This document shows, in pieces, positions 9,474-57,745 of a stretch of 64,000 bases of DNA (position 1 is the stretch's first letter; every line of letters begins with the position of its first letter). The stretch lies in assembly GCA_051294375.1 (NCBI GenBank), contig CM119268.1, positions 8,427,008-8,491,007 of the forward strand, written 5' to 3'. The position numbers were made by a program, and so were the translations under genes. This DNA comes from Paraspadella gotoi (lineage: Eukaryota > Animalia > Chaetognatha). Below the pieces are notes generated by a model that was not told the origin of the DNA, ran no database searches, and worked only from the letters and a program-made list of their open reading frames with translations.

Positions 9474-9549
<76 letters not shown>

Positions 9550-9574: not shown

Positions 9575-10450
9575 CATTAAAGAAAAATGAAAGGGAGATG
9601 CGAGACGGGAGTTTTAAGGCGGAGGGATTGATATTGCTGAGGTGAGGAAGAGAAGTTAACGTAATGGTTGCTAGGGTAAGGTTAGGTAAGGCCTAATGGA
9701 AAAACGAATTGGAAAGTGTTCCTTTCTCAAAAGGGTCAGCGCTTCAAAACAGTATTTTCGACCATCGACCCAATTTATTGCAGCAAATCCGGGTAGCGAA
9801 AATTTGAAAGAAAGAGCTGTGTGATGCGGAATGACGGAGAAAAGGAAAGTGAGATTATGCGATTGGAGTCAACGACCGTTGGAAAGATCAGGTGGAAAGT
9901 TGCAAAGCTGCCGACTAAAAAGATCCGAATCAAACGGGAGTTTAAATGTGAAGTCAAAAGGACAAAGAAACGAAATTTTTTTTTATGACTTTAGAATAAA
10001 AAAAAAATCTTTGTCAAGTCAATATTTCACGTCAAATTTCAAACTGGATTCAAAGAAAGATTTGAACTGTCGAAACGATATAAACAAAGAGAAAAACTCC
10101 GATCTTTCGAATAAAAGATGTTTCACTAAAAAAAAAAAAATATTGTGAAAAAAATTATTGTTTGTTGGAAGGAAACAGAAATTTAATTTCTCAAAGACGG
10201 ATGGCGACAAAGACCAATGGCGACGACGGCGGCGGCAATAGAAACAACGACGACGACGACGACGACGACGCGACACGACGACGACACAACGACGATAACG
10301 ACGCTTGTTGCCGGAAGTGAAAAACTTGTGAGATTCTTTAATCAGTCGTTAATTGAAATCTCGCACCGATGTCTGGGAGAAATCGAATTGGACATAGTTT
10401 CGAGGTTTGGATTTCGTGTGAGTGATAGTGATTGAGTTTTTAAGCGTTTT

Positions 10451-10517
<67 letters not shown>

Positions 10518-10540
10518 TAGATAGATAGATAGATATAGAT
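9575..10540 (+). repeat. Near-identical tandem copy of ~8597-9549 across an N gap (probable assembly overlap)
   Basis: Same sequence ending in the same (ATAG)n. The longer re-copy at 16688-22480 contains this unit only once. Confidence 0.85.
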
Positions 10541-10620
10541 ATAGTTAGATAGACCGTCCGTCCGTCCATTTACTAGAAATTAACCATTAATATCTGTTTT
10601 TAGTGCAGAAATGAGAAAGA

Positions 10621-10714
<94 letters not shown>

Positions 10715-11264
10715 ATTATCTGTTTTCACTTATTTTTTTTCTTCTTCTATCACTTTTATTCTCCTTTCTTTTTCTTCTCTATTTTATCCTCCTCTTATTT
10801 TCTCCTTTCCTTTTCCTTTATCTCATCGTTTCTTGTAACCTCGTCATTAGAATCGATAATGGTGGGATTACCTGAGATACGACGTCATTCTCGAGAAAAC
10901 TACGAGTTCCAAATTTCTGCAGACTGAGAAAAAATCGTATAAAAGAGAGAAAGGGAGAAAAAACCATGAAACCATAAAAACGAAGGTATAATGTAAATTT
11001 ACGAATGAAAAAAAAAATTTTTTGAATGTAAGGGTCCTAAAATAAAAAAAAAGGGGAAAAAACCTTCGATAAAAATGTATGGGTTTTTTTTCCAGAGATT
11101 CTTTACCAGCGAAGAAAAACGTGTGTGAGCGAGGGAAAGAAAAAATATCCGACCTCGTGAATTATGGGGTGGAGAAGAAGAGGAAGAGGAGGAGGAAAAG
11201 AAAGAAAGGGAAGGGGGCTTGGTAAGGAAAGGGGTCAAGAAGAAGGAGGGACGAGAAGGGCTTG

Positions 11265-11351
<87 letters not shown>

Positions 11352-11563
11352 AAAAAAAGATTTAAAAGATTTAGAGGAAAAACTATTTACACTTTGCTTT
11401 AAAACAAGAACGGTAATTCCAATGCGTTGCGATGCAGTGACTATCTTTTCATATATATATATGACACGCATTGCATCGGAATCTTGTCTTTTATTCGTTA
11501 GTTGTATGATTTCCTGAAGGCAGCGCTAGAATTCCCTAAGGTTTGAGGTTTTTTTCCTGTATT

Positions 11564-11715
11564 AACAAATGAGCAATCAACCATAGACGAATTATATGCA
11601 TTTTTAACGTAAGAGGGACAGACCGACGGACAGACATACTGACCAACAGACCGATAGACCGACCAAAAAGTGACTTATAGAGTTGCTCCGCGAATACTCG
11701 CGGCGCAATTAAAAA
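11564..11715 (-). mobile_element. Short Helentron-associated (HINE/DINE-1-like) element, copy 1
   Basis: On -: T-run, hairpin TTGCGCCGCGAG-TA-TTCGCGGAGCAA, CTCTATAAG, (GTCG/GTCC/GTCT)n tract, and end TTGCTCATTTGTT that re-uses the subterminal repeat. Confidence 0.65.
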
Positions 11716-12013
11716 GTTTCATGAAACTGATCGAATAAAAAGAAAAATAAGGAATGGTTATTCCAAGGTGTTGCGCTGCATTACTTTTCTTTTTATTTAT
11801 CATATCATTTATTCCTTATAGTTTATAAGATTTTTTTGGTAGACATGATGTATTAACCTTTTTTTTCGTTGTTAGTTTGATAGTAGAAAAAACCAAGTTT
11901 TAATGATATTTTACAATGAATAATAATACAAAAAATTATTAAAACATTTTTTTTCTACTAAGATTTCTTTAGAAACAAAAAGCGGCGCCAGTAGTCACTT
12001 AGATTTGATTTTT

Positions 12014-12173
12014 AACAAATGAGCAACAAACTATAGTCAAGTTATAAGCATTTTTAACATAAGTAGGACACACCGATGGACAGACATACCGACGGACCGA
12101 CCAACTGAGTGACCGACCTACCGAAAAGTGACTTATAGGGTTGCTCCGAGAGTACTCGCGGCGCAACTAAAAA
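12014..12173 (-). mobile_element. Short Helentron-associated element, copy 2
   Basis: Copy of 11564-11715 diverged by substitutions, with the same ends and different flanks. Confidence 0.65.
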
Positions 12174-14242
12174 TGTTGAGATTGAAAAAGGTTTAAGACT
12201 TACGGGAGAAAAGGGAGTAGAAACAAGAAAAGAACGGAGGCAGAGAAACTTAAGGGAATTAAAAAATTGGACTGAGCATCGATCGGAGTCTTGGTTGAAG
12301 CAGAAAGGAGAAAGAAGACCAATAGTAATTGCTAAAGAACAAAGAAAAAGAAGCGAAATAGAGAAAGAAATGCAAGTAAGAGAAAGAAAAGTTTTTTAGT
12401 ATGAATAGGCATTTAGAGAGACCAATAATGGGGATAAAGGATGAAGGAAGGGAGAGAGAGAGAGACGAGAGGAGCATGAAGACTTGGACGTGAAGAGAGT
12501 ATGGAGGGGAGAGAAGGGACGGGACGAACGAGAGAGGCAGAGATTTAAAGCGCGAGATGAAGTAGAGCTCAAAAAATAAAAAGTACGTCAACCGCGAATT
12601 CGTATTTCTCATCGATGAAAAAGCATAAAAAGCGATTTCAAATAACTTCACGGATTTGAAGAAAAATGGATCTATTCATAAAAAATACCATATTTTCCGT
12701 TAAGATTATTTGCTATATTCCCACCATGATTAAGAGAAAGAGAAAAACAGAGAGCACGATGAGAGAGAGCGAGGAGAGAGATGACTGCAGAGACGAGAAG
12801 AGAGAGGACAGAATATATGTATATAATCCCCATGTGCTTGACAGAAACCACATCAGGGTTCCGCCTCTGAGCCACGCTATCGCCTGTTGTCGACCGCCGT
12901 CTGCGATATACGATGTCACATATGACCTTTAACCACTTGACAATACGCGTATTTACTTTTGCCATATTCTATCGGGCCGCCTCACCAGCCTTTCGCCGGC
13001 CGTCGTTCTGGTCGCGGCGCTCTCTCTCCATTCGCCAGATGCCATTCTTAGCGGCTCGTCGAAACGGCGCTGTCCTGCTGCCATTCTTGAGACGGAGGGA
13101 TGAGCGGGAGAGCAAAGAAGATGAAGACCAGATAGACGAGATGATCGACCGAGACGAAGCAGAGGAGAGCATGCGATGAGAGACAAGTATATGTATCTCG
13201 AGAGAGAGAGAGACTAGGAGCATGAGAGAGAGGAGTATAAGAGAGAGAGAGAGAGAAATATATTCGCTTGCTGGATATTTATAATTATCACGTTCGCCGA
13301 ATAGGCATCTCCTTACGGAGTTGAGCCGCAAGTGGTGAACGGAGCGAAAGGCACAAGAGAGGAAAGAAAGACCGAGAGAAAGGAAAGAAAGTCTTAAGAA
13401 TAAAGTTACCAAAGAAAATCTAAAAGAGATTACAAAAAATTAATTTTGAAGCCATGAGGAGCACACAAGGAGCAAGAAAAAAAGACAGATCTAAAGGTGA
13501 GAAAAGTAGCAGAAAAGACTTCAGAGCAGAAAAAAAAAAAATTCTCCGATTAATCAACAGATCAGTGGTCCAGCTTCGCTCGCTAGAGGTCGGAATTGAG
13601 GTGATTTTAATTATACACAACTCCCCAAAACAAAGAACCAAAATATAAATAGCAGGGGAATCTCTCCACTCTTCTCTTTTCCCCTTATCCTTCGTTGCGC
13701 GATGGCTCCCTGCGTTGGTCAATGTCCCTATCCTCATGACATAGATTCACCGCTCCAGAAGGGCGCTCGCTTACTTGCGCTTCTTTATGAAATCCCAAAG
13801 GCCTCGCATCGACTTTGCAGCGTTATATTTTTCGCCGTTAAGGTTAGCTAAACTATATGAGCGTGTTGACCGCGCTAATGAATATCGTAATATATCCCAA
13901 ATTATACTTGTGCGCCGGCGCGCGAACCAAATTTAGAGGACCTCTTTTACTGGATAAATATAATATCAAAATAATTGCGTTGACGCTATTGTATCATATA
14001 CTAAATGTCTATTCATTTCTAGAGTAATAAAAGATAGAGACAAATCTTACAATCTTAACAAAAAGACATTTAAAAAAATAATTTTAAAATCTAAAATCCA
14101 AGTTTTTGTGACCCGGCGATCTTGAACAGCACGGAGAGTCATAAAGTTTCCTTAACTTACGATATTAGCGGCAAATTCCTTATTAGAGTTCGGCGGCTAT
14201 GAGTTTTATTTTATCAAATTTTCATGAAAAGTTACCTTAACC

Positions 14243-14322
14243 CTAAATAGCTAAATACTAAATACTAAATACTAAATACTACAATACTAAATACTACAAT
14301 ACTAATATACTACATACTAATA
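14243..14322. repeat. (AAATACT)n heptamer tandem repeat
   Basis: Directly visible; cleaner copy at ~27740-27832. Confidence 0.85.
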
Positions 14323-16072
14323 CGAACTCAATTCTGACAATTAATATAATACTTCCGGACAATTTGCGCCACGAGCAAATCGGCCGAAGTTCGGGAACGG
14401 AAACCGAATGATGACCTTACATATCTCCCAACTTCTGCTCGCTTCTAGAGACCTCTTGTCTGTTATCTCTTTTGGGAAGAATGAGAAGAGAGACGAGATA
14501 TGAGACGGCTGAGAGAGAAAGACGCGACGAGCACGCATTGATGATGATAAGATCATTACTAAAAAACGCCCCGGGCATGAGCGCAGAAACAGCCCCTTTA
14601 GCGGCACCTATTTGCGGGCCCTCCTAGGCGTCTCTATCGCCAAAATATAAAAACTTTCTGTGCGCCGGCCCCCGGCGGGATCTTACCGCTAACTAAACTT
14701 AAAATCTATCCCGATTTGTAACAAGTATCAATACATTTAATTTACAAAAATAAATACTAGGTATTTTACAAAAAAAATTACTAAAGCGCGCATATCCCTA
14801 AACTATGCACCAACTACATTAAAATATAATGCGAGAGAGACGAGATAGAGAAGAGCAGAGACCCTGAGAGCAGACCACTGTACAGAGACTGACGATCGAC
14901 GAGATGGAGACCGACCTAGACGAGAGAGAGCAGAGATTTGATTTGACTTTGAATTTTTATTCTGCTACATAATTGTTAATAAAACAAAATCTTACGAATC
15001 AACCAGGATTCGCTAACCCAGAGCCGCTACTATGGTAAAACTATACATTCATGTAAAAAAGATAAAATAACATAATAAAATTCATTAAATAAATATAATC
15101 AAAATAATCTCAAATTAAAAAGAACAAAATTTTCCTACTACAGATCATCTTAAGTTTATAGATGGAACCTTTTCCATATCATCCATTTTCAAATCGTCTA
15201 CCAATACTAATATGAGAGTATCTTAGATATAAATTTCCTCTGAATCTCGATTTTATTGTCGTCTTCTAGAAAGTTTTCATGTTTTTTCCATTCCTAACGC
15301 AATCAATTGAGACTCCATCATCGATATATATCACTGGTTCACAGATTGTCTCTTAAGATCTTTGAATGTCTCACACTCTAGCCCACTACCGTATTCCTCG
15401 CTATTCACAAAGAGAATCTGTGTCTTTGTCTTTGTGCATTATTTAGGTAGTCCTTGCAATGGCGTTCCTCTTTTGTAGTTCCTTTTTGTTACGAAGCAGT
15501 TATCTATGACTTGCATCTTAGTTTTAGCAGACCTGAGAGCAGGACGAATCTTCAAGGCCAAGCGCCTTGCGCTCACCCGTCTTTAGACATCCAGCGAAGT
15601 TTTACTTACCATAAGCTGGATGAGTAAAAGAGCGCGACGAAAAGAAAGATAGGAGCTGGCGAAGGTTACGAGAAATAAACTAAGGCGATGGAACTCGTAG
15701 TGAAGAAATAAATGTGTGAATAAAGCGCTGAGTCCGTGATATCCGGTGAAGTCCGGTGAAGGACCCAAGGAGCTGGTGATCTATTACGAGTGATGAGGCG
15801 AGAAGGAAGGGAAATATTTCTTTAGAGATTGCAGCGAGAAGAAAAACAAGAAGCTCGTTAATCATCCTTATCTCTCTATTTTCGTCGTCGTTGTCGTCTT
15901 TTTTCGTCGTTGTGTGCGTCGTCGTCTTTACTTTCGTCGTTGTCGTCCGTCCTTATCGTCGTTGGTCGATCACCCTTCTCTGGCAATTTCATTAGGTCAG
16001 GCACTTTTATTGCAGTTTTTTCATCTCTGGCAGTATTCTCTCTCTTTNNNNNNNNNNNNNNNNNNNNNNNNN

Positions 16073-16687: not shown

Positions 16688-17370
16688 CCGTCGTTCGTTA
16701 TCGTCGTCGTCACGGACGTCGTCGTCATTATCAAGAATACAAAAACACTCTATTTACTAACAACATGCGCGTTTCTCGAGCAATTTAATTAATTTCCGGT
16801 GACATTGAAAATCCTATTCATCGAAACATGTGCTCACAAAAGGCAGCCCGCTCTCTTCTCTTTTGTCACCACGGTGGCGATCGCAATCACAATTTCCGCG
16901 GCGCGAACTGTCCGCGAGATTGAAACATTTATGCAAGCGACGTCGCGTGACCTATTAATATCCATTACGAAGGCCAAAAGCCTTTTCAAAAGCTTTTCCT
17001 GTGACGATGAAGGGGGACGAGAGCGGGCGAGAGTCTTTTAATGAACGAATCGAAAAAATCCGGGAAACCGAGAATTTAAACTCGCGTAAAAATATATTAA
17101 AAGGTCGCGTGAAAAAAAAGGAGTGTCGTGTGGAAGGGTGAGGCGGAGTGAACTGGGTGGCGGGTACAAAAGTAACCAGGTCACGATCGGTCTGGTCGAG
17201 ACGGATCGGTGGCGCGAAATTTTGAATGGAAGAAAATGACGAAATGAGCAATATTAAACATTTAAAAAATATTAAAAATGTCAAAGTTAAAAGCTAGGCG
17301 AGAAATTTTGGGGAAGCGGTACGTATACAAGACGATAAATCTCTTGTGTGGTGTGTGTGTGTGTGAGTGT

Positions 17371-17437
<67 letters not shown>

Positions 17438-20341
17438 ATTTAGTAAAAGTTTAAAAGCTTGACTCAGTGGCGGTTAGCGAAAGATAGTCCCAACCATTCA
17501 AAGACCGGCGTCTTAAGAGGAGCCAAAAATGAAGGGAATTCTAGTGGGTTGAGTAAGGCCGTTACGGAGGAATCTTGCGGGTGAGTTGACGTAACTGGGG
17601 TAAAAACGACTTGAACTAGTAGGTTCTTGCATAAAGATGCCTTGAATGCGCAGGAAGCACGATAACCATCAACGTTTGAAATAGTCTTGCGTGAAAAGAT
17701 TACTCGCCCGGCGATGAGGTTGAAGAGTGCAACGTTCGCACGTGAGCTTTGCGCGTGCGCGACTTAAATTCGCGCAACGGAAAACTCGAGTCGAGTTAAC
17801 GAGGGTTAATTTTGGGGCGGTGAGCCATTTTGAGAATGAAGTTGAGCGACGCGGATCCAGAGTTCGTACATTTGCTTACGATTTTCTTTTTTCTTGTGCG
17901 ACAAAACTGAAAGGTGAATCGTAGGAATCGCTCACGCGTTGACTCGTTGTTTGTGAAAGAAAGCGATTGTGACTCCGATACATCATTTTCTTTTTGTCGT
18001 TTCGTTATTATGTTTTTCTCAATTCCCTTTTTATGACGCAGCTGACGTTAGACGAGAAATCGGATGACGGTTGAAGGGAAGTGCAGAAGGGGAAAGGGAT
18101 TAGAAATGGGACGGGAATTTAAAATGGTGCGGGAATGAAATTGGGACGGGATTAAATGGGGACGGGATATGAAATGGGGACGGGAATGAAATGGGGACGG
18201 GGAATGAAAAGGGATCGGGGAATGAAATCAGGGACGGGGATAAAATGGACGGGAATGAAATGGGGACGGGGAATGAAATGGGGCGGGGATTAAAATGGGA
18301 CGGGGAAAAGAAATAGGGACGGGGAATGAAATGGGGACGGGAATGAATGGGAGAACGGGGAATGAATGGGGAGACAGGGAATGAAATGGGGGACGGGATT
18401 ACACTGGGGACGGGAATGAAAATGGAGACGGGGATTAAAAATGGGACGGGAATGAATGGGACGGGGAATGAAAGGGACGGGGATTATAAATGGGGACGGG
18501 AATGAAATGGGGCCGAAAACGGGGAACGGAGATCGATGGACAGCAGCTTGCCGAAACAGATACTGACATGGATAAGAATGAAAGAAAAATGAAAGGGACG
18601 ATGCGAGAGCGGGAATTTTAAGGCGAGGGATTGATATGCTGAGGTGAGAAGAGAAGTGAACGTAATGGTTGCTAGGGTAAGTTAGGTAAGGCCTAATGGA
18701 AAAACAATTGGAAAGTGTTTCCTTTCTCAAAAGGGTCAGCGCTTCAAAACAGTATTTTCGACCATCGACTCAGATTTATTGGCAGCAAATCGCGGGTAGC
18801 GAAAATTGAAAGAAAGAGCTGTGTGATCGCGGAAATACGGGAAAGGAAGTGAGATTATGCGATTGATGTCAACGACCGCTTGGAAAAGATCAGGTGGTAA
18901 AGTTGCAAAGCTGCGACTTAAAAAGATTCGAATCAAACGGAGTTTAAATGTGAAGTAAAGGACAAAGAACGGAAATTTTTTTTTTTATGACTTTAGAAAT
19001 AAAAAAAAAATCTTTGCTTAAGTTCGATATATTTCACGTCAAATTCAAACTGGATTCGAAGAGAAGATTTTGAACTGTCGAAACGAGTATAAACAGAAGA
19101 GATAAAAAACTCCGATCTTTCGAATAAAAGGATGTTTTCACTAAAAAAAAAAAATATTGGAAAAAATTAATTTGTTTGTGAAGGGAAACAGAAATTTAAT
19201 TCTCAAAGACGGATGGCGAACCAAGACCCAATGGCGACCGACGGCGGCGGCATATAGACAACAACGCCGCTACGACGACGACGACGACGACGGGAACAGC
19301 TACGACGACATCCAACGACGATAACGACGCTTGTTGCCGGAAGTTGAAAAACTTGTGAGATTCTTTAATTCATGTCGTTATATTGAAATTGCTTCGCACG
19401 GATGTCTTGCGGAGAAATCGAATTGGACCATCTAGTTTCGAGTTTGGATTTGTGTGATGATAGTGGATTGAGTTTTTAGCGTTTTGATAGTATAGATAAG
19501 ATAGATAGATAGATAGATATATACTGATAGACTAGATTAGGATAGATAGATAGATAGCACTAGATAGATAGATATGATAGATTAGATATATAGTTAGATA
19601 GTACCGTCCGTCCGTCCATTTACTGAAATTAACCATTCATATCTGTTTTTAGTGCAGAAATGAGAAGAGAGAAGAGAGACAGAGTAGAGAGAGATGAGAG
19701 AAAGAGAGAGAGGAAGAGAGAGAGAGAGGAGAGAGAGAGAGATGGAGAGAGAGCGAGAGAAGAAGAGAGAGAAATAATAATTATCTGTTTTCACTTATTT
19801 TTTTTCTTCTTCTATACTTTTATTCTCCCTTTCTTATTTTCTTCTCTATTTTATCCTCCTCATTATCTTTTCTCTTTCCTTCTTCCTTTACTCTCGTTCT
19901 GTAAACCTCGTCATTAGAATCGATAATGGTGGGATTATCCTGAGGATCGTGACGTCAATTCTCGAGAAAAACTACGAGTTCCAAATCTGAGAAAAAATCG
20001 TATAAAAGAGAGAAGGGAGAAAAAAACATGAAACATAAAAACGAAGGGAGAATGTTAATTTAACGAATGAAAAAAAAAATTTTTGAATGTCTGGGCCTAA
20101 AATAAAAAAAAAGGAATAAACCTTCGGATAAAATGTAATGGGTTTTTTTTCCAGAAGATTCTTATACCAGCGAAGAAAAGAACGTGTGTGAGCGAGGGAA
20201 GAAAAAATATCCGAGCTCGTAATATGGGGTGGAGAAGAGGAGGAAGAGGAGGAGGAAAAGAAAAAGGAAGGGGCTTGGTAAGCAGAAAGGGGTCAAGAGA
20301 AGGAGGGACCGACGAGGGCTTGAAAGAGAGAGAGAGAACGA

Positions 20342-20393
<52 letters not shown>

Positions 20394-21882
20394 AAAAAAA
20401 AAGATTTAACGGATGGACATTTTTTATTTACACTTTAGCTTTAAAACAAGAACGTAATTCAATACGTTGCGATGCAGTGACTTTCTTTTCCAGTGTATTT
20501 ATGACACGCATTGCATCGGAAATCTTGTCTTTATTCGTTAGTTGTAGGATTTCCTGAGGCAGCGCTAGCAGTCCCTTAGGCTTCAGGTTTTTCCTGTCTT
20601 AACCAATGAGCGATCAACCATAGACGATATATGCATTTTTAATGTAACTGGACAAGAGCGGACGGACAGACAGTGACCGACCGACAGGACGATAGACCGA
20701 CCGAAAAAGTGGAGAAGAGTTTGGCTCCGCGAATACCGCCGCGAATTAAAAAGTTTCATGAAAGATCGAGATAAAAAGATAGAAATAAGGAACGGTTAGT
20801 TTCAGAGGTGTGTGTCGGCTGCATTACGTTCCTTTACTTATCATCGTCATTTATTCCTTGATATTGTTTTGGGTAGGAACTGGATGGATTAACCTTCTTT
20901 TGCGTTGTTGAGTTTGATGAGTAGGAAAAAACCGCAAGTTAAGTGATATTTTTATACAACGGATTTAATAGATAGCAAAAATTATTAACATTTTTTTTCT
21001 ATGTAAAGTAGTTTCTTAGAAACAAAAGGCGGCGCCAGTTATGTTCTACTTTGAGAGTGATTTTTAACGAAATTGAGCAACAAGACGTAGTCAGTGTGAT
21101 AAGCATTTTAACATGAAAGTAGGAGCTAGTTCAGCGTGTTCGAGGAGTCAGACTACTTGGAGTCGTGTGTGAGCCGACCTTCTAATATGCTTGTATGGTT
21201 GTACTGCGATGCTCGTATTTGGTTTTGTTGTTGTGTGGTGTTCTTGGTTTTTTTTTTTGTTTTTTTTTTTTTTTTTTTTGTTCTTTTTGTTTTTTCTTCT
21301 GTTTTTTTGTGAAAAGGTGACTGAGGGGTGTCTCCGTAGTTGTGTATTCGTTTGCTTTTTTTTGCGTTGGTCGGTCTATGTTTTATTTTTCTCGTATTAT
21401 GTGGGAGTATGGAATTTAATATATTGTGTAGATGTATCTGTTTATTTCTGGTAGGAAATTTGGATGTTATGATTATATCTATAGAAAAGTATATATGTGT
21501 AGTTTGCAGTGAGAAGATCTTGTTATGATGTGGAATGAAAAAAGGGAGTGTTGCTTGGTTTTTAGTGCAGCGATCTGGAGTCTTGCGCTTTTTTGTTTTT
21601 TTGGTGTGTTGGGAAGCGTAGAATGAGGAGAAAGGAAAGGTTTGTATTTTTGTCTTATATATTGTGTTATATTTTTTGTGTTTGTCTAAAGGAACTTCTT
21701 ATATGTAGGAATAAGTATAGGATTAAGTTATTATTTTGAAATTTGTTATATGATGTGATATTGGTAGTTTTATTTATTTTTTATATGGTATGATAGATTG
21801 TGTGGTTGGCGTGATTGAAGGTAGAGGATGAGAGCAATAAGGGGGGAAAAGGAGGCGGGGAAGAGGAGAGATGATGGAGAGA

Positions 21883-26865: not shown

Positions 26866-27984
26866 GAGAGAGAGAGAGAGTTTTTTTCGCGAGGATATTT
26901 TTATCACGTTCGCCAATAGGCATCTCTTCTTTTTCGAGTGGCGAAGGTGAAGGAGGAAAGGAAAGAGAGGAAAGGAAAGAGAGGAAAGGAAAGAAAGTTT
27001 AAGAAAAAGTTACAAAAGAAAATAAAAGAGATTACAAAAAAATTAATTTTGAAGCCATGAGGAGCAAAGGGAGAAGAAAAAAGAGATCTAAAGGGAGAAA
27101 AGAAGAGAAAAGACTTCAGAGAGAAAAAAAAAAATTCGGCCGATAATCACAGATGTGGGCCATCGTCGCTAGAGGTCGAAATTGAGGTGATTACAAACAA
27201 AAGGGAATCTCTATCTTCTCTTTTTCCCCCTTTTTTTTTTCTGTGCCGATGGCTCCCTGGTGGCTAAGTCCCGATTTCGCTCCATGAATAGATTTCCGCT
27301 CAAAGGGCGCTCGGCTTCTTGGCTTCTTATGAAATCCAAAGGCCGCATCGACTTTTGCAGGTTATATTTTTCGGTTAAGTTAGTAAACATGAGGTGACCG
27401 GCTAATGGAATATCGTAAAACGCCGAAGTATATGTGGCCGGGCGAACCAAATTAGAGGACTCGGTTTACTGAAATATAGAAAGCGAATGGAAATTGCGTT
27501 GGCTATTTGTACAATGTACAATGAGGCATTCATTTTTCTAGAGTATAAAAGAGAGAAAAACTTTGGTTTACAATTTTAAAAAAGACTATTTCAAAAATAT
27601 TTTAAAATTAGAATAAGTTTTTGTGACCGGCGTTTGAACAGAGAGATTAATAAAGTTTCATAGCGATTATTGGGCATTTCTTATAGAATTCGGTGGATGA
27701 TTTTATTTTTATTAATTTCATAAAAGTTAACTTTACCCTAAATACTATAATACTAAATATCTAAATACTAATATTATACTAATACTAAATACTAAATACT
27801 AAATACTAAACTACTAAAATACTAATACTAATCGAACTCAATTATGAAATTTAAAGTGATTAATACTTCCGGACAATTTGCGCCACGAGCAAATCGGCGA
27901 AGTTCGGGACGAAACCGAAGATGACCTTAATATCTGCCCAACACGTGCTCGCTTCTGAGACCTTTGTCTGTTGATACCTTTGGG

Positions 27985-28034
<50 letters not shown>

Positions 28035-28312
28035 GATGATAAGATATTACTAAAAACGCCCGGGATGAGGAGAAACAGCCCTTAGGGCGATCCTATTTTG
28101 CGGGCCCTTCCTAGGGTCTTATCCGCAAATAAAACTTTGTGCGCGCCCCCGGCGGGATCTTACCGCTTAACTTTATACTTAAAATCTATCGATTTGTAAA
28201 AGTATCAAAGTAATATTAATTCTTAAATAACTAGGGTATTTTAAAAAAAATTACTAGGCGTATCCTAAACTTGATACAATAATTAAAAAAAATAGCCGAG
28301 AGAGAGGGAGAC

Positions 28313-28356
<44 letters not shown>

Positions 28357-29362
28357 AGAGATTTGATTTGCTATTTGATTTATTCTGCTCATAATGTTAA
28401 TAAAACAAATTTACAATCACAGGATCGCTAAGAGAGCCGCTACATGATATTATGGTACATACAATTATGTAAACAATATAAAATATACAATTAAAAAATT
28501 CTTAAATAAAATAAACGAGAAATCGGTAAATTAAAAAGAAAAATTTTTATATACAGATCATCTTAAGTTTATAGATGGAACCTTTTCCATTTTTTACATC
28601 CATTACATTTTCAATGTTACCAATTATTTTCAATATTTGAAGTATCTTAGATATTTCTCTGAATTCGATTTTATTGTCGTCTTCTAGAAAGTTTATGTTT
28701 TTTCCATTTTAACGCAATAATTGAGACGGTGTTCTTCATCATCGATAGTGTTACATTGTTCACAGATTGTTCTTTAAGATCCTTTGAAGTTTTTTCACAC
28801 TCTAGCATACCGTATTCGCTATCACAAGAGATCTGGTGTTTTGTTTTGGTGCAATTTTAGTAGTTCCTTGCATGGTTCTCTTTTGTAAGTTCCTTTTGTT
28901 GAGGTTATCTATGATTGATTTAGTTTTAGAGAGAGAGAGAGAATCTTCAAGGCAAGGCGGTACCGTTTTGACATCAGCGAGTTTTACTTACCATAAGTGG
29001 ATGAGTAAAGAGGGAGAAAAGAAAGATGGAGTGAAGGTTACGGAGAAATAACTAAGGCGAGGGAACCGTGTGAAGAAAAAAAGTGTGAATAAAAGCGCGA
29101 GTCCGTGTGAAGTCCGGTGAGTCCGGTGAAGGAAAGGAGCTGGGATCAGTTTTTACGAGGATTGAGGGAGAAGGAAGGAAATATTTCTTTAGAGATGCGA
29201 GGAATGAAAAACGGAGAAAGCGTAAATCATCTTATTCCTCTTATTTTCGTCGTCGTTGTCGTCGTCGTCTTTATCGTCGTTGTCGTCGTCTTTATCGTCG
29301 TTGTCGTCCACCCTTCTTGGAATTCATAGTCAGACTTTTATTGCAGTTTTTTTTCATCTCTT
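26866..29362 (+). repeat. Copy of ~13240-16047
   Basis: Colinear; the two versions differ mostly by single-base indels. Confidence 0.9.
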
Positions 29363-29674
29363 GAGTATCATCCATCACCAAGATTTGCCAATAAACGTTT
29401 ATGTCGTTTATGAGGTATCATATATATTCACTGACTTTCTCAGCATTTCTTTTTCCTAAAATCTGGATATGCGTTTCGCATGATTCCTCTACGTTCAATG
29501 TCCTTATAAAATTGACTTGAGTATGAAAAATATCGCCAAATCGATTTGATTTGTTTATATATATATANNNNNNNNNNAGTTTGGTCAAGAATAATCAACA
29601 AACTTCGTTAATTGATTATATTTATAATCTTAAATTTAGATAATTAAGTCATTTCCTTCACCTGCTCGAGAGAC

Positions 29675-31353: not shown

Positions 31354-34300
31354 CTAAAATTGAACACATTGTATTCCATCCATGCAGGGCTGCGCCCACC
31401 AAGGATTTCGCCCCAGTATTCATATGATTCATCACGGAACTCTTTATTTTTTTAACCGTGCAACAGGTCTTGATTCTGGATAACATCTATTGTTTCTCAA
31501 TGTTTCTGTTGGTTTTTCTGTCGACCCATTATCGTTTTATGTCCTATTTCCTTGCACGAAGTATTTTTATTCGGTCAATTACTCCAATATTCATATTTTT
31601 TTTCTATTAAATTTAACAATTTTGTTTTCTGGGGATTTTTCAATTTTTTCCCTCGAATATCTTTTTTCTTGAAAATCTCAAACGCATTAGCGTAATTATT
31701 TNNNNNNNNNNNNNNNNNNNNNNNNNNNNNNNNNNNNNNNNNNNNNNNNNNNNNNNNNNNNNNNNNNNNNNNNNNNNNNNNNNNNNNNNNNNNNNNNNNN
31801 NNNNNNNNNNNNNNNNNNNNNNNNNNNNNNNNNNNNNNNNNNNNNNNNNNNNNNNNNNNNNNNNNNNNNNNNNNNNNNNNNTTGTCTTCATAGCTCGACT
31901 TTCTTTATCTCTGCGTCGTCGTCGTCTGCCCTCTTTATCATTCTTATCTCCCATTTATTCTATGCTTCTCTCTCCCCGCTTACTATTTCTTTCTTTCTTT
32001 TTCTCTTCTCTTCTTCCATTNNNNNNNNNNNNNNNNNNNNNNNNNNNNNNNNNNNNNNNNNNNNNNNNNNNNNNNNNNNNNNNNNNNNNNNNNNNNNNNN
32101 NNNNNNNNNNNNNNNNNNNNNNNNNNNNNNNNNNNNNNNNNNNNNNNNNNNNNNNNNNNNNNNNNNNNNNNNNNNNNNNNNNNNNNNNNNNNNNNNNNNN
32201 NNNNNNNNNNNNNNNNNNNNNNNNNNNNNNNNNNNNNNNNNNNNNNNNNNNNNNNNNNNNNNNNNNNNNNNNNNNNNNNNNNNNNNNNNNNNNNNNNNNN
32301 NNNNNNNNNNNNNNNNNNNNNNNNNNNATTCTTTTTCAAAAACTACTTTTATTTGCCAAGCTCAAAGCCATCCTTCAAATCCTCACCAGCGATTTGGTTC
32401 GATTCCAACTCGTAATTTTTCATCCTCTCTTTTTTTTTGCCTTCAACTTTCGTCGTCGCCGCGAGATGGAGCGGTAGCGCTTCGTTGGTTGCGTGGAAAC
32501 AAGACTGATTGGCGGAAAACAAATTAACTTCCGGAATCAACTGGAAAACGAGGAATTTAGATCAGAATAAAAGGGAATTGTAGTCGGTAAATAAGGATTA
32601 GATCCGGTCAGCGATCTGGTTGTTAATACGAAAATATAAAAAGAAAGGAAAGACAATCAAAAGCAGCAACAATGAAACGGTTATTTCAATAATATTTCAA
32701 TTATATCAATTGTTATGATACGAAAATGTCATAAATGTCATAACCGCGCCGAGATTTCTCCCAACCGAGACGGAATCATCGTGGCGAACGTCATCGGTCA
32801 ACGCTTTCGAATTACATCCGCGATGAAGGAAGACAATTCGGCTTGAATCGCTGCCTTCGAGATTCTATTTTTAGACTTTTTGTGTTCGACTTCTCATCGT
32901 CGCCCTTCTAGTCTCACCTGCGAATGAGTAAGTCTCATCCGAAGTTTTAAGGATCCTGATTTGAGTTCAGTNNNNNNNNNNTTTTTCGAATTACCAGAAA
33001 ATGCAAAGTCAATGAAAAAGAAGCGGATTATTCATGAACTGGGCTTTCTGCTCTGTCTCTGATTTTCTAGCCAAATTAGTATTTTATACATACTTATCCC
33101 CGTTTTTTAAAATTTTTTTAAATTTAAACAAACATTTCCTTATCAACGCTACTATTTGCCAGCGTTTTAATTAAACTCCCTTCGTTCGTTTCCTCACTTC
33201 GACCGTGAAACCTCGAGACTTTTTTTTCTTTCTTCCTTTTAAATTATTTATTTCCCCTCCCTTTTTTCCCCCGCATTTCTCCGCGACTCAACTTTGTGAG
33301 AGGAAGAGAAGTTGAATCTTTTATTTCTTAATTTTTAAGATTCCCATAAAACAGAAAATAGATTCGACAAATAGTTTGGCCGAAAAGAAACCGGGAGGGG
33401 GTGGAGGAGGAGGCGGAGCGAAAGCTAATTACACGTGATCACAAAAAAAAAATCTCATTTCTTCCTCTCCGAACCTCTCTTCTTTTGTTCCATTTCCTTT
33501 CGTTTTCTTTTCCATCTTTCTTTCGCTTCGCCTCCTCCTTATCGCCCAATATCAGTAGTTTTGATGGTTTTTTAGGCGGCTTTAACCACTCTCTGCTTCT
33601 CCTCTCAGTCTCTCTCTCTCGTCCAGTTCTCTCGGTCTCTGCATCGTCTCTCGACGATCTCTTCTCTCTTCTCATCTCTCTCGATCTCTCTTCGTCTGAT
33701 CTCTCTGCTGCTATCTCTCTTTCCCATCTCTAAAACGTATGCCGAGTCATTTTCATGCGATAACAGTTATTGAAAGGAAGTCGGTCGGAATTTTTAAGTT
33801 CTTGGGTCCCTTTCCTTTCTTCCTCCCTTTCCCTTTTTTTCTCTATTCCTTTCCTTTCTCCCTTCTTTCTCCCCTCCTATTCTTTTTCTTTCCCAAACCG
33901 GGATCACAACGAACTTACCTTTTCTTCAAGGCCGTTTCTCTTCACGAAGGCGCCAGCTCAACTCGCTGACTTCCTATCTTCGCAAGGACTCTAGTACTCG
34001 CTCTTTTTCTCACGTTTAAACTTCCGGTCGTAAGTCATCCACTCATCTTCCCGTCCGGGAGTAATTGCCAACTTCCCTCTTCTCTTAATAATCATTTAGA
34101 AGCTTCTTCCTCGTTTATATCGGCGGTGTTTTGACTATTGATAATAAGAAATCGGAACATTCAAGCATGAGTTAAAGGTAAAAAGGCATGAAGGACTTAC
34201 TGATACTACAGATATCTACAAATTAGTTTTTTATTTTTCATTTTTTCAAGTCTAAATTTATTTTCAAAACTAAATCATCGCTATCCACATTCCACATCTA

Positions 34301-34729
34301 ATCATTAATATCCATTTCATATATTTATTAACCCCATAGTTTTTTTCCTTTCCTCTCCCTCACTTTCATTTTCCTCCCCAACAACAGCAACAGCCTCAAC
34401 CCCCCCCCAACATCAAGGCCGCACCTTTTCTTCCGTCCTCCCATTATCAAGGCCGTTTTCTCCCATTAAGGGGAGGGACTTTTTCCCAGCTCCATCTCCT
34501 TACTCTTCCTGCTAAACGTCCTCCTTTGTTAAGCGCCACAATCGCTGAGTGCCTCAGCTAAGCGCCGTTGCCAAACACGGACTTGTGCTGCTTTATTCAT
34601 CGAAGCGCTATTTCTAACATTATTATCTTTAAATAGTCGGATTTATTTTTTTAAAAATGTTATGTTGAATATGATGGTAATGTGGCAGCAAGACTTAAAG
34701 CTGCCTCACTGCTGTCCGTCCTCAGCCTC

Positions 34730-35090
34730 GTCTCAATGGCTGAGCAGGCTAAATCATCTCATTCCATCCGTGCGTCCCGGGTTCAATCCCTGGGTATCCC
34801 GGTTCTGGCTTAAATGTGACGGTGCCGGTATAAACATGCCAGTGACAGGAGGCGGTCACTGAGGGTCCGCAGCCCCTACGCCAGTTGGTGAGATACCCCG
34901 CGCCCCGGGTATCACAGGCTATCCTCCCGTTGCCATAGTAACTGAGAATCATTAAGGTTAGGATAGATTCGTCCATTTCGTCTTGCACCCCGATTTTCGC
35001 CACTCTTTATTCTTAGTCAATAGATCGATAACTTTCATTCTAAGCCATCCTTGATTAAGCGCCCACATGTCCAAATGCTCCCAACTAGCT
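34730..35090 (+). mobile_element. tRNA-derived SINE-like element carrying a twister ribozyme (3' boundary uncertain)
   Basis: A box TGGCTGAGCAGG (34737-34748), B box GGTTCAATCCC (34780-34790), T-arm CCCGGG/CCTGGG. Acceptor and anticodon stems do not pair, so this is not a tRNA gene. Followed by a GC-rich structured body. Confidence 0.75.
34805..34884 (+). ncRNA. Twister ribozyme, type P5, family A (intact)
   Basis: P5 CUGGC/GCCAG; P2 AUGU/ACAU; G-A-CGG; UGCCGGUA; U|AA (predicted cut 34831/34832); T2 GC:GC; P3 CAGUGAC/GUCACUG; P4 AGGG/CCCU; L4 U-CCG-CA-GC; T1 CCG:CGG. Every element of the twister consensus is present in permuted order. Confidence 0.88.
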
Positions 35091-35099
35091 ACGAGAGAG

Positions 35100-37840
35100 A
35101 GATACCGAAAATATAAAAACGAAAGGAAGACAATCAACAGCAGCGAACAGATGAAACGGTTATTTCAATATATTCTCAATTATATCAATTAGTTATGAGA
35201 GCGAAAAATGTCATAAATGCTCAATACACCGCGCCGGACGATTCTCCTCCAAACTCAACGCAACGCGGAGCATCGAATCATTTCGTGGCGAATGTCCATC
35301 GGTCAACGCTTTATCGAAATTACATGCCGCGATGAAGGGAAGACGGATTCGGCTTCGAGATCGCTGCCTTCGAGATTCTATTTTCTACGACTTTTCTGTG
35401 TTCGACTTCCTGCCCATCGTCGCACTCTCTACCGTCTCACCCTGCGCGACACTGAGTAAGCAGCTCTCATCGCGAAGTTCTTTAAGGATCCTGAATCTTT
35501 CGAAGTTCAGTTCTTCCTTTTTCGGAATTATACCAGAAACTACAAAGCTCAACATCGAAAAAGAAGCGGGATTATTCATCAGAACTGGGCTTTCTCGCTC
35601 TGTCTTCTGATTTTCTAGCGCAGAATTAAGTCATTTTACTACAGCTACTTATCCCCGTTTTTTTAAAATTTTTTTAAATTTAAACCAAACATTTCCTTAT
35701 CAACTCGCTAACACTATTTTCCAAGAGCGTTTTAATTAAACTCCGCTTCGTTTCGTTCTCACTTCGACCGTGAAACCTCGAGACTATTTTTTTTCTTTCT
35801 TCCTTTTAAAATTATTTATTTCGCACCTCGCCCTCGTATTTTTTTTTGTATCCGGCGTTTCTCCGCGACTGCAACTTTGTCGAGAGGAAGAGAAGTTGAA
35901 TCTTTTATTTCTTATTTTTAAAGATTGCCCGCAATAAAACAGAAAATAGATTCCGACCAAATAGTTTGGCCGGAAAAAGAAACCGCGGAGGCGGGTGGCA
36001 GGAGAAGGCGGAGCGAAGCTAATTACAACAGCGTGATCCACAAAAAAATCTCATAATTCTTCCTCTCGCGAACCTCTCTTCTTTTGTTCCATTTCCTTTC
36101 GTTTTCTTTTCCATCTTTCTTTCGCTTCGCCTCCTCCTTATCGCCCAATATCAGTAGTTTTGATGGTTTTTTAGGCGGCTTTAACCACTCTCTGCTTCTC
36201 CTCTCAGTCTCTCTCTCTCGTCCAGTTCTCTCGGTCTCTGCATCGTCTCTCGACGATCTCTTCTCTCTTCTCATCTCTCTCGATCTCTCTTCGTCTGATC
36301 TCTCTGCTGCTATCTCTCTTTCCCATCTCTAAAACGTATGCCGAGTCATTTTCATGCGATAACAGTTATTGAACAGGAAGTGCGGTCGAATGTTTTTAAA
36401 AGTCTTGGGCTGCCCTTTCCTCTTCTTCCTCGCCATTTCCTTTTTTCTATATTCCATCTTCCTTTCCTCCCTTCCTTTATCACCTCCTATTACTTTCTTC
36501 TCCCAAACGCGGGCATCACAACGAACTTACATTTTCTATCAAGGCGCCGTTTCCTCCTTCACGGAAAGGCGCACCGCGTCAACTCCGCTGACTTCCTCTC
36601 TATCGCAAGGCATCTAAGTACTCGCATCTTGTTTCTGCAACGTTTAAAGCTTTCCCGGGTCGTGAGTCATCGCACTCATCTTCCCAGTCCGGGAGTAATT
36701 GCCAAGCTTCCCTCTCTCTTAAATAATCAATTTAGAAGCTTCTTCCTCAGTTTATATCGACGGTGTTTTGATATTGATAATAAGAAAAAATCGGAACATT
36801 GTCAAGCATGAGTTAAAGAGGTAAAAAGGTATGAAGGACATTACCTGATCCATTACAAATACGCATCTCCACAAATTAGTTTTTTCACAGTCTAAACTTT
36901 ATCTTCCAAAACTCAAAATCATGCAGCGCTATCACACATTCTAACAGTCCTAATCATTCACATATCCAATATTCATATATCTTATTACCCGCATAGTTTT
37001 TTTCGCTTTCTCGTCCGCTCCACTTTCATTTATCGCTCCCAAAACCAGCAACAGCGCTGCACCAACATCAGGCCGCACCTTTTCTTCGTCCCTGCCTATT
37101 ATCAAGGCGCGTTTTACTCTCTCGCGCATCTAAGGGGAAGGGACTTTTTCCCCAGCTCCATCTCCTTACTCTTCGCTGCTAAACGCGCGTCCTGCCTTTG
37201 TTAAGCGGCAGCAAGATCGCGCTGAGTGCCGTCAGCTAAGCGCCGTTGCCAACCGGACTTGATGCTGGCCTTTATTCATCGCGAAGCGCTATTTCATAAA
37301 CATTATTCATCCATTCTAAAAAACTAGTCAGATTACTATTTTTTTAAAACATGTTATTCGCTTGAATATGATGGTAATGCTGGCAGCAAGACTTAAGCTG
37401 CCGCTCACTGCCTTGTCCGTCGCTGCGAGGGCGCTCGTCTCAATGGGCCTGAGCAAGGCCTAAATCATCTCATTCATCCGTGCGTCCGGGTTCATCCCCT
37501 GGGTATGCCGCGGTTCTCGGCTTATAATGTGACGGTGCCGGTATAGAACATGCCAGTGACAGGAGGCGGTCAACTGAGGGTCCGCAGCGCGCCTACGCCC
37601 AGTTTGGTATTGAGATACCCCAGCGCCCACGGGTATCACAAGGCTTATCCTTGCCGTTGACCATCACGTAAAACCTGAGAACATCTAAGGTTAGCGATAG
37701 ATTTCGTCGCAATTTCTGTTTGCACCGCCGACTTTTCGCCACCTCTTTATTCTTAGTCAATAAGCATCGCATTAACTTTGCTTCTAAGCCGATCCTTGAT
37801 TAAGCGCGCCACATGTCGCAAATGCCTCCGGCAACTAGCT
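35100..37840 (+). repeat. Insertion-rich copy of ~32625-35090, including a noisy SINE (from 37437) and twister (37516-37602)
   Basis: Colinear with dense extra bases, yet ~36070-36370 is essentially identical to ~33470-33770, consistent with patchy polishing of a raw read. Confidence 0.9.
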
Positions 37841-39169
37841 ATATCGTCATTCCACTAAGCGCATCCTTACTTGCCGACAATGCTTCGCTCCCTTCCGAGC
37901 GCCCTCATTGAGGGCGCGGCGCCGCCGGAACGAAACATTTCACCGGCGATTCTTGAACGGGTATGTTGTTGTTGTGTGCAATGTGTTTGGCCGGTATCTA
38001 NNNNNNNNNNNNNNNNNNNNNNNNNCGGTATTGTTCCGTGAATGGCTTCTTTGCCAAGGCTCTCACTTCGTTCTTATCGCCTGCGACGGTGAGTCGGTGA
38101 CTAAGTTTCTCTTCGCCTTGGTCTTCCCTTCTTCTCATCATCCTTTTTTTAATTTTTATCAATTTTACATAATCCATTAATCATGCGCCACTTACGACGT
38201 ACATTGTACGTACATATGTAAATTGAGTTTCTTTTCAAAGTTAATGTTTATCCCACGAGATTTTCCCAGAGCCTTTAGTATAAGTTCCATGTCGTAATCG
38301 CAGCTTATCGTGAGAGCCATTACTTTGTCTACTTTTACTTTTTTTATGCAGAATTCTGTCTTTTTTTTTAAATTATCATTACGATTTTTTTATATTTACA
38401 ACTACGTACGTATGTATATATTACATCGTTTTTCTCATTTTTTTTCATCCGCTTGTTCCTTAAATCCATGCAAGATAGTTTTTCATTTATTTATTTTCCA
38501 TTCATTGCTGCTTTGACGTTCGCCGAATAACTGCAATCTCACTGTCACTAACATGGATCTGTATTCAAAGGCCCCAGGCGCCTCCTTCACCGCCTGCTCC
38601 GCCTGTTCCCCCTTTGTCGCCGTTCCATCATTGGCCAATGGCATCGATGATGACGTCGGCTTAATGCGCTCTCCCTATTTTTTCCATCGTCGTCTTCGTC
38701 GTCCGATGTTGTCGTTTGAGACAAAAGAACATCGTTACGTCGCGAAAGACAAAGGGGCTCAGCCGGACTCAGCCGGACTCAGCCGGACCTTCGTTGTCAA
38801 TTTAAACCTTCGTTTTCTGCTTTTCCGATGTCGTAGTTGCGCGCGATCAGCTTTCTTGTGAGAGATCTGATCAGAATTGTTCCAGTCTAAACCACGGTCC
38901 GCGAGTTATAGAAAGGCCCACGAACGAGTTGCACGCCAACCAAAAGCGATCTTAATCGGCGCGAGCCGTGTCGTAATATCATGTTATATTTATATTATTC
39001 AGACCTGAGAATAAAAATGAGAAAAAACGACCGCGTTATAACTCGGTGAATTAATATTAATATATATAATATTAATAAATGGGTTGCTGGAAGCAACGTC
39101 AAGTGATGATAAAAATTCCCCAAGAACCCAAGAGGCTCATGGAATTGAAGTTAGATTAGCCATGTTTAC

Positions 39170-57404: not shown

Positions 57405-57531
57405 CAAGAGCTGAAGGACCGCGACCGAGAACTCAACGTCATGGTGGCGCAACATCAAAAACAAATGGCCGCTTGGGACGAAGACAGACAAAAGCTCCTC
57501 TCTCTGGAGCATAAATGCGGTCGACAAGACG
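57405..57531 (+). CDS. CCDC62: CCDC62-like exon, 5' end in gap (QELKDRDRELNVMVAQHQKQMAAWDEDRQKLLSLEHKCGRQDG)
   Basis: Matches the recalled human segment ELKDRDKELNDMVAVHQQQLLSWEEDRQKVLTLEERC. Phase 1 donor G|gtgaga. Confidence 0.92.
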
Positions 57532-57745
57532 GTGAGAAGTGGATCAGGGAAGTAAGGAGTCGGGAGAGAAGAGAGGGTTAGGATAGACAAAAGCCTCTCT
57601 CTCTGGAGCATATATGCGGTCGACAAGACGATGAGAAGTGGAGCAGGGAAGTAAGAAGTCGGGAGAGAAGAGAGGGTTAGGATAAACAAAAGCTCCTCTC
57701 TGGAGCACAAATGCGGTCGACAAGACGGTGAAGAGTGGAGCAGGT
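57483..57745 (+). repeat. 99-bp tandem repeat (~2.7 copies) spanning the exon end and splice donor
   Basis: Units start at 57483, 57582 and 57681. Confidence 0.93.

What the first reader, a model, noticed from the sequence alone, without database searches (positions are those of the whole stretch)
34730..34884. tRNA-derived SINE with an intact circularly permuted (P5) twister ribozyme right behind its Pol III promoter
Seen: A/B boxes followed 15 nt later by a complete twister fold (P5, P2, P3, P4, both pseudoknots, GA, U|AA). T1 is CCG:CGG, against CCC:GGG in the rice Osa-1-4 twister and CCU:AGG in env22 as I recall them, a compensatory change. Known: twisters in eukaryotic retroelements (e.g. 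RTE 5' UTRs) are typically P1 type and define the 5' end. Inference: here cleavage at 34831/34832 would cut off the ~100-nt promoter head, which is paradoxical for a SINE. It could indicate self-limiting retroposition, a processed 5'-OH/cyclic-phosphate RNA that can be religated or circularised, or a Pol III-driven ribozyme RNA gene family.
Basis: partly seen in the sequence, partly recalled or inferred. Interest (0 to 1): 0.9.

Follow-up and report, generated by a model that had tools for sequence, protein, structure and literature searches.

The report
Twister ribozyme inside tRNA-promoter LTR
A high-copy 257-base repeat carries a tRNA-type promoter sequence followed by a complete twister ribozyme fold; it is likely the terminal repeat of a small retrotransposon rather than a SINE, whose RNA would cut itself into unit-length pieces that could be closed into circles and copied back into the genome.

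Summary
The twister fold is real. All six helices named pair fully, a descriptor finds it once in the window and in 0 of 154 shuffled windows, and Rfam twister-P1 aligns in exact register over U|AA to P4 (E 0.15). The P5 model is not reported. Copy variants at 1% or more spare the core.

The SINE label is not supported. Contigs put the repeat's ends at 34681 and 34937, 49 bp upstream of the tRNA head. The ends are TG...TA with a 9-bp imperfect inverted repeat, a 4-bp duplication (GTAA) flanks them, the flanks favour ATAT on both sides, and there is no tail. This fits a solo LTR of a Helenus-like Pol III mini-retrotransposon (PMC10886601).

In an LTR-internal-LTR parent, cutting in both LTRs would give a unit-length RNA that keeps the promoter at its 3' end, as in plant retrozymes.

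Not shown: an internal region or primer site, cleavage, transcription, circles. Six literature searches found no twister in an LTR. Verdict: new variant of a known kind.

The parts
34677..34680 (.). left 4-bp target-site duplication (GTAA)
   Evidence: sequence; same 4 bases at 34938-34941
34681..34937 (+). 257-bp high-copy repeat, likely a solo LTR; TG...TA ends
   Evidence: loose ends before 34681 (34, 56, 6, 19 contigs in X1, X4, X9, X7) and behind 34937 (30, 51, 10, 21); depth thousands of times the flank
34681..34689 (+). left arm of 9-bp imperfect terminal inverted repeat (7 of 9 match)
34684..34705 (+). 6-bp hairpin in the U3-like part upstream of the promoter
34730..34793 (+). tRNA-like head with intact T arm; not a functional tRNA gene
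   Evidence: first 8 nt match the tRNA-like start of Helenus-3_CGi; T34791C variant turns a G.U into G-C in the T stem
34737..34748 (+). Pol III A box
34780..34790 (+). Pol III B box
34806..34883 (+). circularly permuted (P5-type) twister fold with P3: P5 34806-09/34880-83; P2 34814-17/34834-37; G34818, A34819; T1 34820-22/34867-69; 2-bp P1 34823-24/34829-30; T2 34838-39/34872-73; P3 34841-46/34855-60; P4 34862-65/34874-77; G34861-C34879
34831..34832 (+). predicted cleavage site U|A
   Evidence: aligned to the UAA of Rfam twister-P1; cleavage not tested
34893..34914 (+). 7-bp hairpin 3' of the ribozyme; its 3' arm repeats 34792-34798
34929..34937 (+). right arm of terminal inverted repeat
34938..34941 (.). 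right 4-bp target-site duplication (GTAA)
37378..37667 (+). second, indel-ridden copy inside a local duplication of 32629-35091 at 35106-37841; probably an assembly artefact
   Evidence: descriptor does not hit it

Best explanation
This is a high-copy 257-bp repeat with TG...TA ends and a 4-bp target duplication that holds tRNA-type A/B boxes followed by a complete permuted twister fold; it is likely the solo LTR of a small non-autonomous, Gypsy-mobilised retrotransposon (Helenus-like) whose Pol III transcript would be cut by the ribozyme in each LTR into a unit-length RNA that would be circularised and reverse-transcribed. Steps: (1, inferred) Pol III starts just upstream of the A box in the 5' LTR; the LTR has no T4 run (shown), so it would read through the internal region into the 3' LTR. 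(2, predicted) The twister cuts U34831|A34832 in both LTRs, giving a monomer with a 5'-OH and a 2',3'-cyclic phosphate that carries U3 and the promoter at its 3' end; the cut would also stand in for a terminator. (3, inferred from retrozymes) A host RtcB/tRNA ligase closes the circle, a host tRNA primes on an internal primer site, and a Gypsy reverse transcriptase and integrase make and insert solo-LTR, full or multimeric DNA with a 4-bp duplication.
For: Ends, duplication and symmetric ATAT-type flanks. U3-like 49 bp present in the bulk of copies. Animal Helenus: tRNA-like LTR, 4-bp duplications, Gypsy-type primer sites; solo LTRs noted (PMC10886601); several of its LTRs begin TGTGGCAG. Twister evidence. 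Variants at 1% or more of depth in X4 or X7 within 34806-34883 fall at 5 of 78 positions (34823, 34824, 34830 in P1; 34870 in L4; 34879, G-C to G.U); none breaks a core pair. Chance of that placement is 0.002-0.007 if sites were independent, which they are not. Nine of nine bacterial loci found with only the L4/P4 side also carry the CGG partner strand; one, the only one so tested, scores 48 bits as twister-P1. Retrozyme model, including solo-LTR products from a circle (PMC4918200). Two wasp Helenus LTRs show, by eye, a hammerhead in the same place. Weak polypurine-tract hint: loose ends finishing AAAAAAGG six bases before the left end in 2 (X1) and 4 (X4) contigs.
Against: No LTR-internal-LTR copy and no primer-binding site were seen; no genome is held. 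The right end is TA, not CA (also so in a few Helenus LTRs). No Rfam hit at gathering score and no twister-P5 report. A competing hairpin 34827-34840 covers the cleavage site, and the twister fold lies 7 kcal/mol (alone) to 10-17 (in context) above the pseudoknot-free MFE; the bacterial controls lie 3.6-5.2 and 5.6-10.9 above, so this copy is somewhat worse. The family is young, so conservation is partly recent ancestry. Some diverged pieces start at 34716-34731. No autonomous partner ORF was recognised in the window.
Confidence: 0.5

Rival explanations
1. It is a Helenus-like LTR, but the twister is attenuated or a passenger. The element replicates as a linear RNA with ordinary strand transfer, and the ribozyme at most trims or limits transcripts.
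For: Competing hairpin over the cleavage site and unfavourable 2D energetics; 2-bp P1; published animal Helenus LTRs mostly show no ribozyme by eye, so the family can do without one.
Against: Core spared by variants; P1 is dispensable for cleavage (PMC5408937); bacterial twisters are also disfavoured by pseudoknot-free folding.
Confidence: 0.22
2. It is a non-autonomous cut-and-paste element (Ginger2-like MITE) that carries a tRNA-plus-twister cassette as cargo; DNA moves, RNA plays no part.
For: TGTNR left end, 4-bp duplication and AT-rich target also describe Ginger2 (PMC2836005); only stand-alone 257-bp units were seen; many near-identical copies (1167 of 2213 contigs at 99% or more in X4).
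Against: Ginger2 inverted repeats are 50-180 bp; here 9 bp, imperfect and asymmetric. A DNA route would not select for the ribozyme core.
Confidence: 0.13
3. One reading: a tRNA-derived SINE copied by target-primed reverse transcription, self-limited by the ribozyme, like the Schistosoma Pol III hammerhead repeats.
For: A/B boxes; several diverged pieces begin at 34716-34731 and a few loose ends lie before 34717; precedent in PMC6765202.
Against: The main left end is 49 bp upstream of the head; the right end is sharp with no A-rich or simple-repeat tail; the duplication is 4 bp with symmetric flanks; no pile-up of ends at 34832 (1 contig before 34833 in X9 among the rows shown).
Confidence: 0.1
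4. The twister fold is a chance look-alike in a repeat.
For: No Rfam hit at gathering score; best E 0.15; folding z about 0.
Against: 0 of 154 and 2 of 68,121 shuffles; exact register with the Rfam consensus; near-identical L4/P4/T1 in bacterial P1 twisters.
Confidence: 0.05

Closest known systems
Helenus / TRIMp3 (Kojima 2024, PMC10886601)
   Same: tRNA-like A/B boxes inside an LTR-sized unit; animal members make 4-bp duplications; TG start; solo LTRs occur; first 8 nt of the tRNA-like part match Helenus-3_CGi at a similar offset (45 vs 50).
   Different: This unit adds a twister after the T arm. The paper's main text has no 'twister', and 'hammerhead' and 'ribozyme' occur only in a reference. 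Four twister-type strings had 0 hits in its supplement. Internal region not seen here.
Plant LTR retrozymes (Cervera 2016, PMC4918200)
   Same: Ribozyme inside an LTR of about 300 bp, 4-bp duplications, solo LTRs, Gypsy-type mobilisation; model of double cleavage and circularisation.
   Different: Type III hammerhead rather than twister; plants; no Pol III promoter mentioned in that paper.
Schistosoma Pol III SINE-like repeats with hammerhead (via review PMC6765202)
   Same: Pol III promoter and self-cleaving ribozyme in one repeat; the promoter ends up at the 3' end of cleaved units.
   Different: Hammerhead; tandem arrays rather than LTR-type ends and a 4-bp duplication.
Twister variants of Schistosoma Perere-3 RTE elements (Liu 2021, PMC8501958)
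   Same: Twister class used in a retroelement.
   Different: Autonomous non-LTR element; the ribozyme sits at the 5' end and defines it; no Pol III mention.
Rfam twister-P1 (RF03160) and twister-P5 (RF02684)
   Same: All conserved residues and pairs of the P1 consensus from U|AA to P4 align in register.
   Different: Permuted at P5 while keeping P3 (78 nt against the 58-position P5 model); below gathering scores.
Animal non-LTR retrozymes (Cervera 2020, PMC7229834)
   Same: Ribozyme repeats in animals that give RtcB-ligated circles.
   Different: Type I hammerheads in tandem repeats without LTR, primer site or polypurine tract.

Membership tests
Twister ribozyme | P2 (4 bp) and P4 stems, with optional P3 and P5 | tested here: met
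   P2 4/4, P4 4/4, P3 6/6, P5 4/4
Twister ribozyme | Pseudoknots T1 (3 bp) and T2 (GC:GC) | tested here: met
   3/3 and 2/2; same T1 in 9 of 9 bacterial loci
Twister ribozyme | Conserved catalytic G, GA, U|AA and L4 U/A | tested here: met
   alignment to RF03160; roles from PMC5408937
Twister ribozyme | P1 stem | tested here: inconclusive
   2 bp only and variable among copies; dispensable for cleavage
Rfam twister-P5 / twister-P1 | Score above the gathering threshold | tested here: not met
   0 hits; P1 17.6 of 67.2 bits; P5 not reported. Clear bacterial twisters also miss the threshold
Twister ribozyme | Site-specific self-cleavage | not testable with these tools
   needs in vitro assay
tRNA-derived SINE | tRNA-type A and B boxes | tested here: met
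tRNA-derived SINE | 5' end at the tRNA head | tested here: not met
   main left end 34681; a minority of diverged pieces start at 34716-34731
tRNA-derived SINE | A-rich or simple-repeat 3' tail | tested here: not met
   no A4 or T4 run in the element; sharp end at 34937
Helenus (animal TRIMp3) | tRNA-like sequence inside the LTR | tested here: met
   head starts at position 50 of 257
Helenus (animal TRIMp3) | 4-bp target-site duplication | tested here: met
   GTAA in this one copy; ATAT-type flank majority on both sides in other copies
Helenus (animal TRIMp3) | TG...CA LTR termini | tested here: inconclusive
   TG...TA with 7 of 9 inverted match; TA ends occur in some published LTRs
Helenus (animal TRIMp3) | Two LTRs around an internal region with primer site and polypurine tract | tested here: inconclusive
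   no joint or primer site among the rows shown; weak polypurine hint in 2 and 4 contigs; no genome held
LTR retrozyme | Self-cleaving ribozyme in the LTR (hammerhead by definition) | tested here: not met
   twister, not hammerhead; would work alike but is not a member as defined
LTR retrozyme | Circular RNA monomers in vivo | not testable with these tools
   only contigs were offered
Ginger2 DNA transposon | Terminal inverted repeats of 50-180 bp | tested here: not met
   9 bp, imperfect

The most novel reading that the evidence does not exclude
An animal LTR retrozyme driven by RNA polymerase III and processed by a twister: a tRNA-promoter mini-retrotransposon that replaced both its terminator and its R-repeat strand transfer with ribozyme cutting and circularisation. 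With the unremarked hammerhead at the same place in two wasp Helenus LTRs, Pol III LTRs would have captured self-cleaving ribozymes of different classes more than once, defining a recurrent 'Pol III LTR retrozyme' design and giving a permuted twister a defined job in a eukaryote.
Probability: 0.4. Interest if true: 0.8.

Novelty: new variant of a known kind. Interest (0 to 1): 0.62.

Why it matters
Twister ribozymes have few assigned biological roles; the one retroelement case I found in print is a non-LTR element in Schistosoma. LTR retrozymes are described from plants with hammerheads, and Pol III TRIMs are described without ribozymes. This element would join the three: it extends LTR retrozymes to a likely animal host and to the twister class, and suggests how a Pol III LTR element can set its RNA ends without a terminator or R repeat. 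It would also be a source of abundant small circular RNA. It is short, young and high-copy, so cleavage, circles and parent structure can each be tested cheaply. It also shows that Rfam thresholds miss P3-containing P5 twisters.

Tried and rejected
Whole genome: none held, so no copy count, duplication survey or parent search. Rfam gathering scans: 0 hits in the window and 0 in 9 bacterial loci; the 901-nt E-value scan gave only 2 chance snoRNA hits. Metagenome pattern scan: 58 loci, none aligned to the element by blastn; chance. Viral contig scan: 0. RF02684 in 2 bacterial genomes: 0, and the control also rang nowhere; uninformative. No RNA holder listed. X9 and X10 are only guessed RNA and all runs are contigs, so expression, RNA ends and circles could not be assessed. 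X10, X11 and X12 (organisms B, C, D) gave 1, 5 and 1 contigs at low depth; not used for host range. Host clade: a putative exon gave no homologue and only unspecific coiled-coil look-alikes; host not identified. Earlier scan notes: nothing. The second window copy was rejected as independent evidence (likely assembly error). The MAFFT alignment with bacterial twisters was out of register in P2/P3, so pairs were tabulated by script. A possible displaced acceptor-stem strand at 34889-34894 (6 pairs with 34730-34735) is within chance and was not used. The loose-end and joint tables were cut (405 and 316 loose-end rows, 12 and 5 joints not shown), so an internal region could be hidden there.

Full report
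Observation. The window is gappy, microsatellite-rich eukaryotic DNA (3,217 N; no recognisable transposon ORF among 143 frames); the host was not identified. At the reported place there is an A box at 34737-34748 and a B box from 34780, then a twister fold from 34806 to 34883. Every named helix pairs fully: P5 4/4, P2 4/4, T1 3/3, T2 2/2, P3 6/6, P4 4/4, plus G34861-C34879 under a bulged A; P1 is only 2 bp. A descriptor for the P5-permuted core hits once in the window, in 0 of 154 block-shuffled windows and in 2 of 68,121 shuffles of the local 201 nt. The descriptor was written from recalled twister anatomy after seeing the sequence, so these rates are indicative.

Rfam. Nothing reaches a gathering score, and the 901-nt E-value scan shows no twister. 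On 131 nt, twister-P1 is the best hit (17.6 bits, E 0.15) and aligns in exact register from U|AA through P4, failing only on the strand that is permuted to the 5' side here. Twister-P5 is never reported; it has 58 positions against 78 nt here, and the tool keeps only the best overlapping clan hit. As a control, a 19-nt pattern from the P4/L4 side found 9 loci in bacterial genomes. All 9 read as P1-type twisters by eye and script, all 9 miss Rfam's gathering score, and the one tested by E-value scores 48 bits, E 5.6e-10. All 9 carry the CGG partner of T1, which the pattern did not ask for; they are related, so this counts as one or two events. It confirms CCG:CGG as a natural T1 against the Rfam consensus CCC:GGG.

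Against activity. Pseudoknot-free folding gives z about 0. The twister-compatible fold lies 7 kcal/mol above the MFE alone and 10-17 in longer contexts, with a hairpin at 34827-34840 over the cleavage site. Six bacterial controls lie 3.6-5.2 and 5.6-10.9 above. So the method penalises true twisters too, but this one more. P1 is dispensable for cleavage (PMC5408937, passages and section 11 read).

Variation among copies. Contigs from public runs were laid on the region (7 of the 12 runs listed). Within 34806-34883, changes at 1% or more of depth in X4 or X7 occur at 5 of 78 positions: 34823 T>A (60 and 43 contigs), 34824 G>A (20, 16; G.U to A-U), 34830 A>C (48, 21) and A>T (31, 25), 34870 C>A (11, 3; the variable L4 base) and 34879 C>T (15, 10; G-C to G.U). 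None breaks a core pair. Random placement would do so with p 0.002-0.007, but the sites reflect few subfamily events and phase is unknown. Core changes exist below 1% (34821: 5 and 4 contigs; 34822: 2 and 0; U34831: 5 and 3), and decayed copies with internal deletions are common (table 5).

What the element is. Depth over the repeat is thousands of times that of the flanks (X4 about 670,000-780,000 against 72-290; X1 about 85,000-260,000 against 8-22). The tool warns this is no copy number, but it marks a high-copy repeat; 1167 of 2213 X4 contigs are 99% or more alike, so it is young. Loose ends pile up before 34681 (34, 56, 6, 19 contigs) and behind 34937 (30, 51, 10, 21). The unit is therefore 257 bp and starts 49 bp upstream of the tRNA head; depth over 34692-34711 matches depth over the head. 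It begins TG and ends TA with a 7-of-9 inverted repeat, is flanked by GTAA on both sides, has no A4 or T4 run, and other copies favour ATAT-type flanks on both sides. These are integrase-type marks, not those of target-primed insertion (established knowledge). Against this, several diverged pieces begin at 34716-34731 (table 8): either a subfamily with another U3 or a SINE-like relative.

Comparison. Kojima 2024 (PMC10886601; main text parts 1-4 of 6 read; supplement parts 1 and 5-9 of 11 read, the whole file searched) defines Helenus: short non-autonomous LTR elements with a tRNA-like sequence in the LTR, 4-bp duplications and Gypsy-type primer sites in animals, and solo LTRs. The window unit fits on head position, duplication and left end, and its tRNA-like part starts with the same 8 nt as Helenus-3_CGi. 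The paper mentions no twister and four twister-type strings find nothing in its supplement. By eye, Helenus-2_SyJa and Helenus-2_SyUm LTRs hold a type III hammerhead right after the tRNA-like part; this was not run through a tool. Ginger2 shares the TGTNR end and 4-bp duplication but has 50-180 bp inverted repeats (PMC2836005, passages). The defining LTR feature, an internal region with a primer site and polypurine tract, was not seen; the only hint is a purine run ending six bases before the left end in 2 and 4 contigs. I therefore call it Helenus-like, not a member.

Mechanism. Shown: ends, duplication, promoter boxes, absence of a T4 run, ribozyme anatomy. Inferred: Pol III starts in the 5' LTR, reads through, and the twister cuts in both LTRs. 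The monomer would run from A34832 of one LTR to U34831 of the next and so carry U3 and the promoter at its 3' end. Plant retrozymes are modelled this way, with ligase-made circles that yield solo-LTR, full or multimeric DNA (PMC4918200, passages); RtcB circularises animal retrozyme RNA in vitro (PMC7229834, passages). Schistosoma Pol III hammerhead repeats solve the same promoter problem with tandem copies (PMC6765202, passages and section 11 part 2; primary paper not seen). A lone solo LTR, as here, would be a dead end that yields a roughly 100-nt head and a 5'-OH 3' piece.

Novelty. Twisters in retroelements are known from the non-LTR Perere-3 (PMC8501958, passages). Searches for twister with SINE, with LTR and retrozyme, type P5 in eukaryotes, with tRNA-derived and Pol III (0 papers), with long terminal repeat and Helenus with ribozyme listed no report of a twister in an LTR or Pol III element; most listed papers were seen as listings only. 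The library lacks most subscription papers, and Repbase and the original twister paper with its supplements were not seen; they may already list this repeat. Verdict: new variant of a known kind, interest 0.62; ribozyme fold about 0.9 likely real, LTR-type element about 0.7, full circular mechanism about 0.5.

Noticed in passing
PMC10886601 supplement, Helenus-2_SyJa-LTR and Helenus-2_SyUm-LTR: By eye, a type III hammerhead with intact core lies directly after the tRNA-like part of these two gall-wasp LTRs; the paper's main text does not mention it.
   Followed up: partly
L059-L067, about positions 1468-1540 or equivalent: Nine P1-type twister ribozymes in gut Firmicutes genomes share 17 of 18 nt of P4/L4 with the window element (the search pattern required this) and fall below Rfam's gathering score; L061 lies near a small repressor-like ORF (label from recall), suggesting a prophage.
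   Followed up: partly
window 32629-35091 vs 35106-37841: Tandem near-duplicate at 83% identity with many small insertions; short-read contigs lack several of the extra letters at 35145-35204. Probably an assembly artefact. Similar duplicated blocks occur at 6636-12068 vs 16688-21124 and 13243-16036 vs 26866-29368.
   Followed up: partly
window 34788-34798 and 34904-34914: A short direct repeat brackets the ribozyme; 34893-34899 can pair with either copy, which could be a folding switch or the scar of the ribozyme's insertion.
   Followed up: no
window 34761, 34764, 34767, 34823, 34830: These changes occur in many contigs and together in one diverged X11 contig, pointing to an older subfamily; its 34830 changes would weaken the hairpin that competes with the ribozyme.
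   Followed up: partly
window 57405-57533 and 61356-61796: Likely coding exons of a coiled-coil protein; resemblance to CCDC62 is from recall and was not confirmed.
   Followed up: partly
window 34703-34886: One contig of run X10 (organism B, RNA by guess) matches 184 nt without a difference at depth 5; may be carry-over or a close relative.
   Followed up: no
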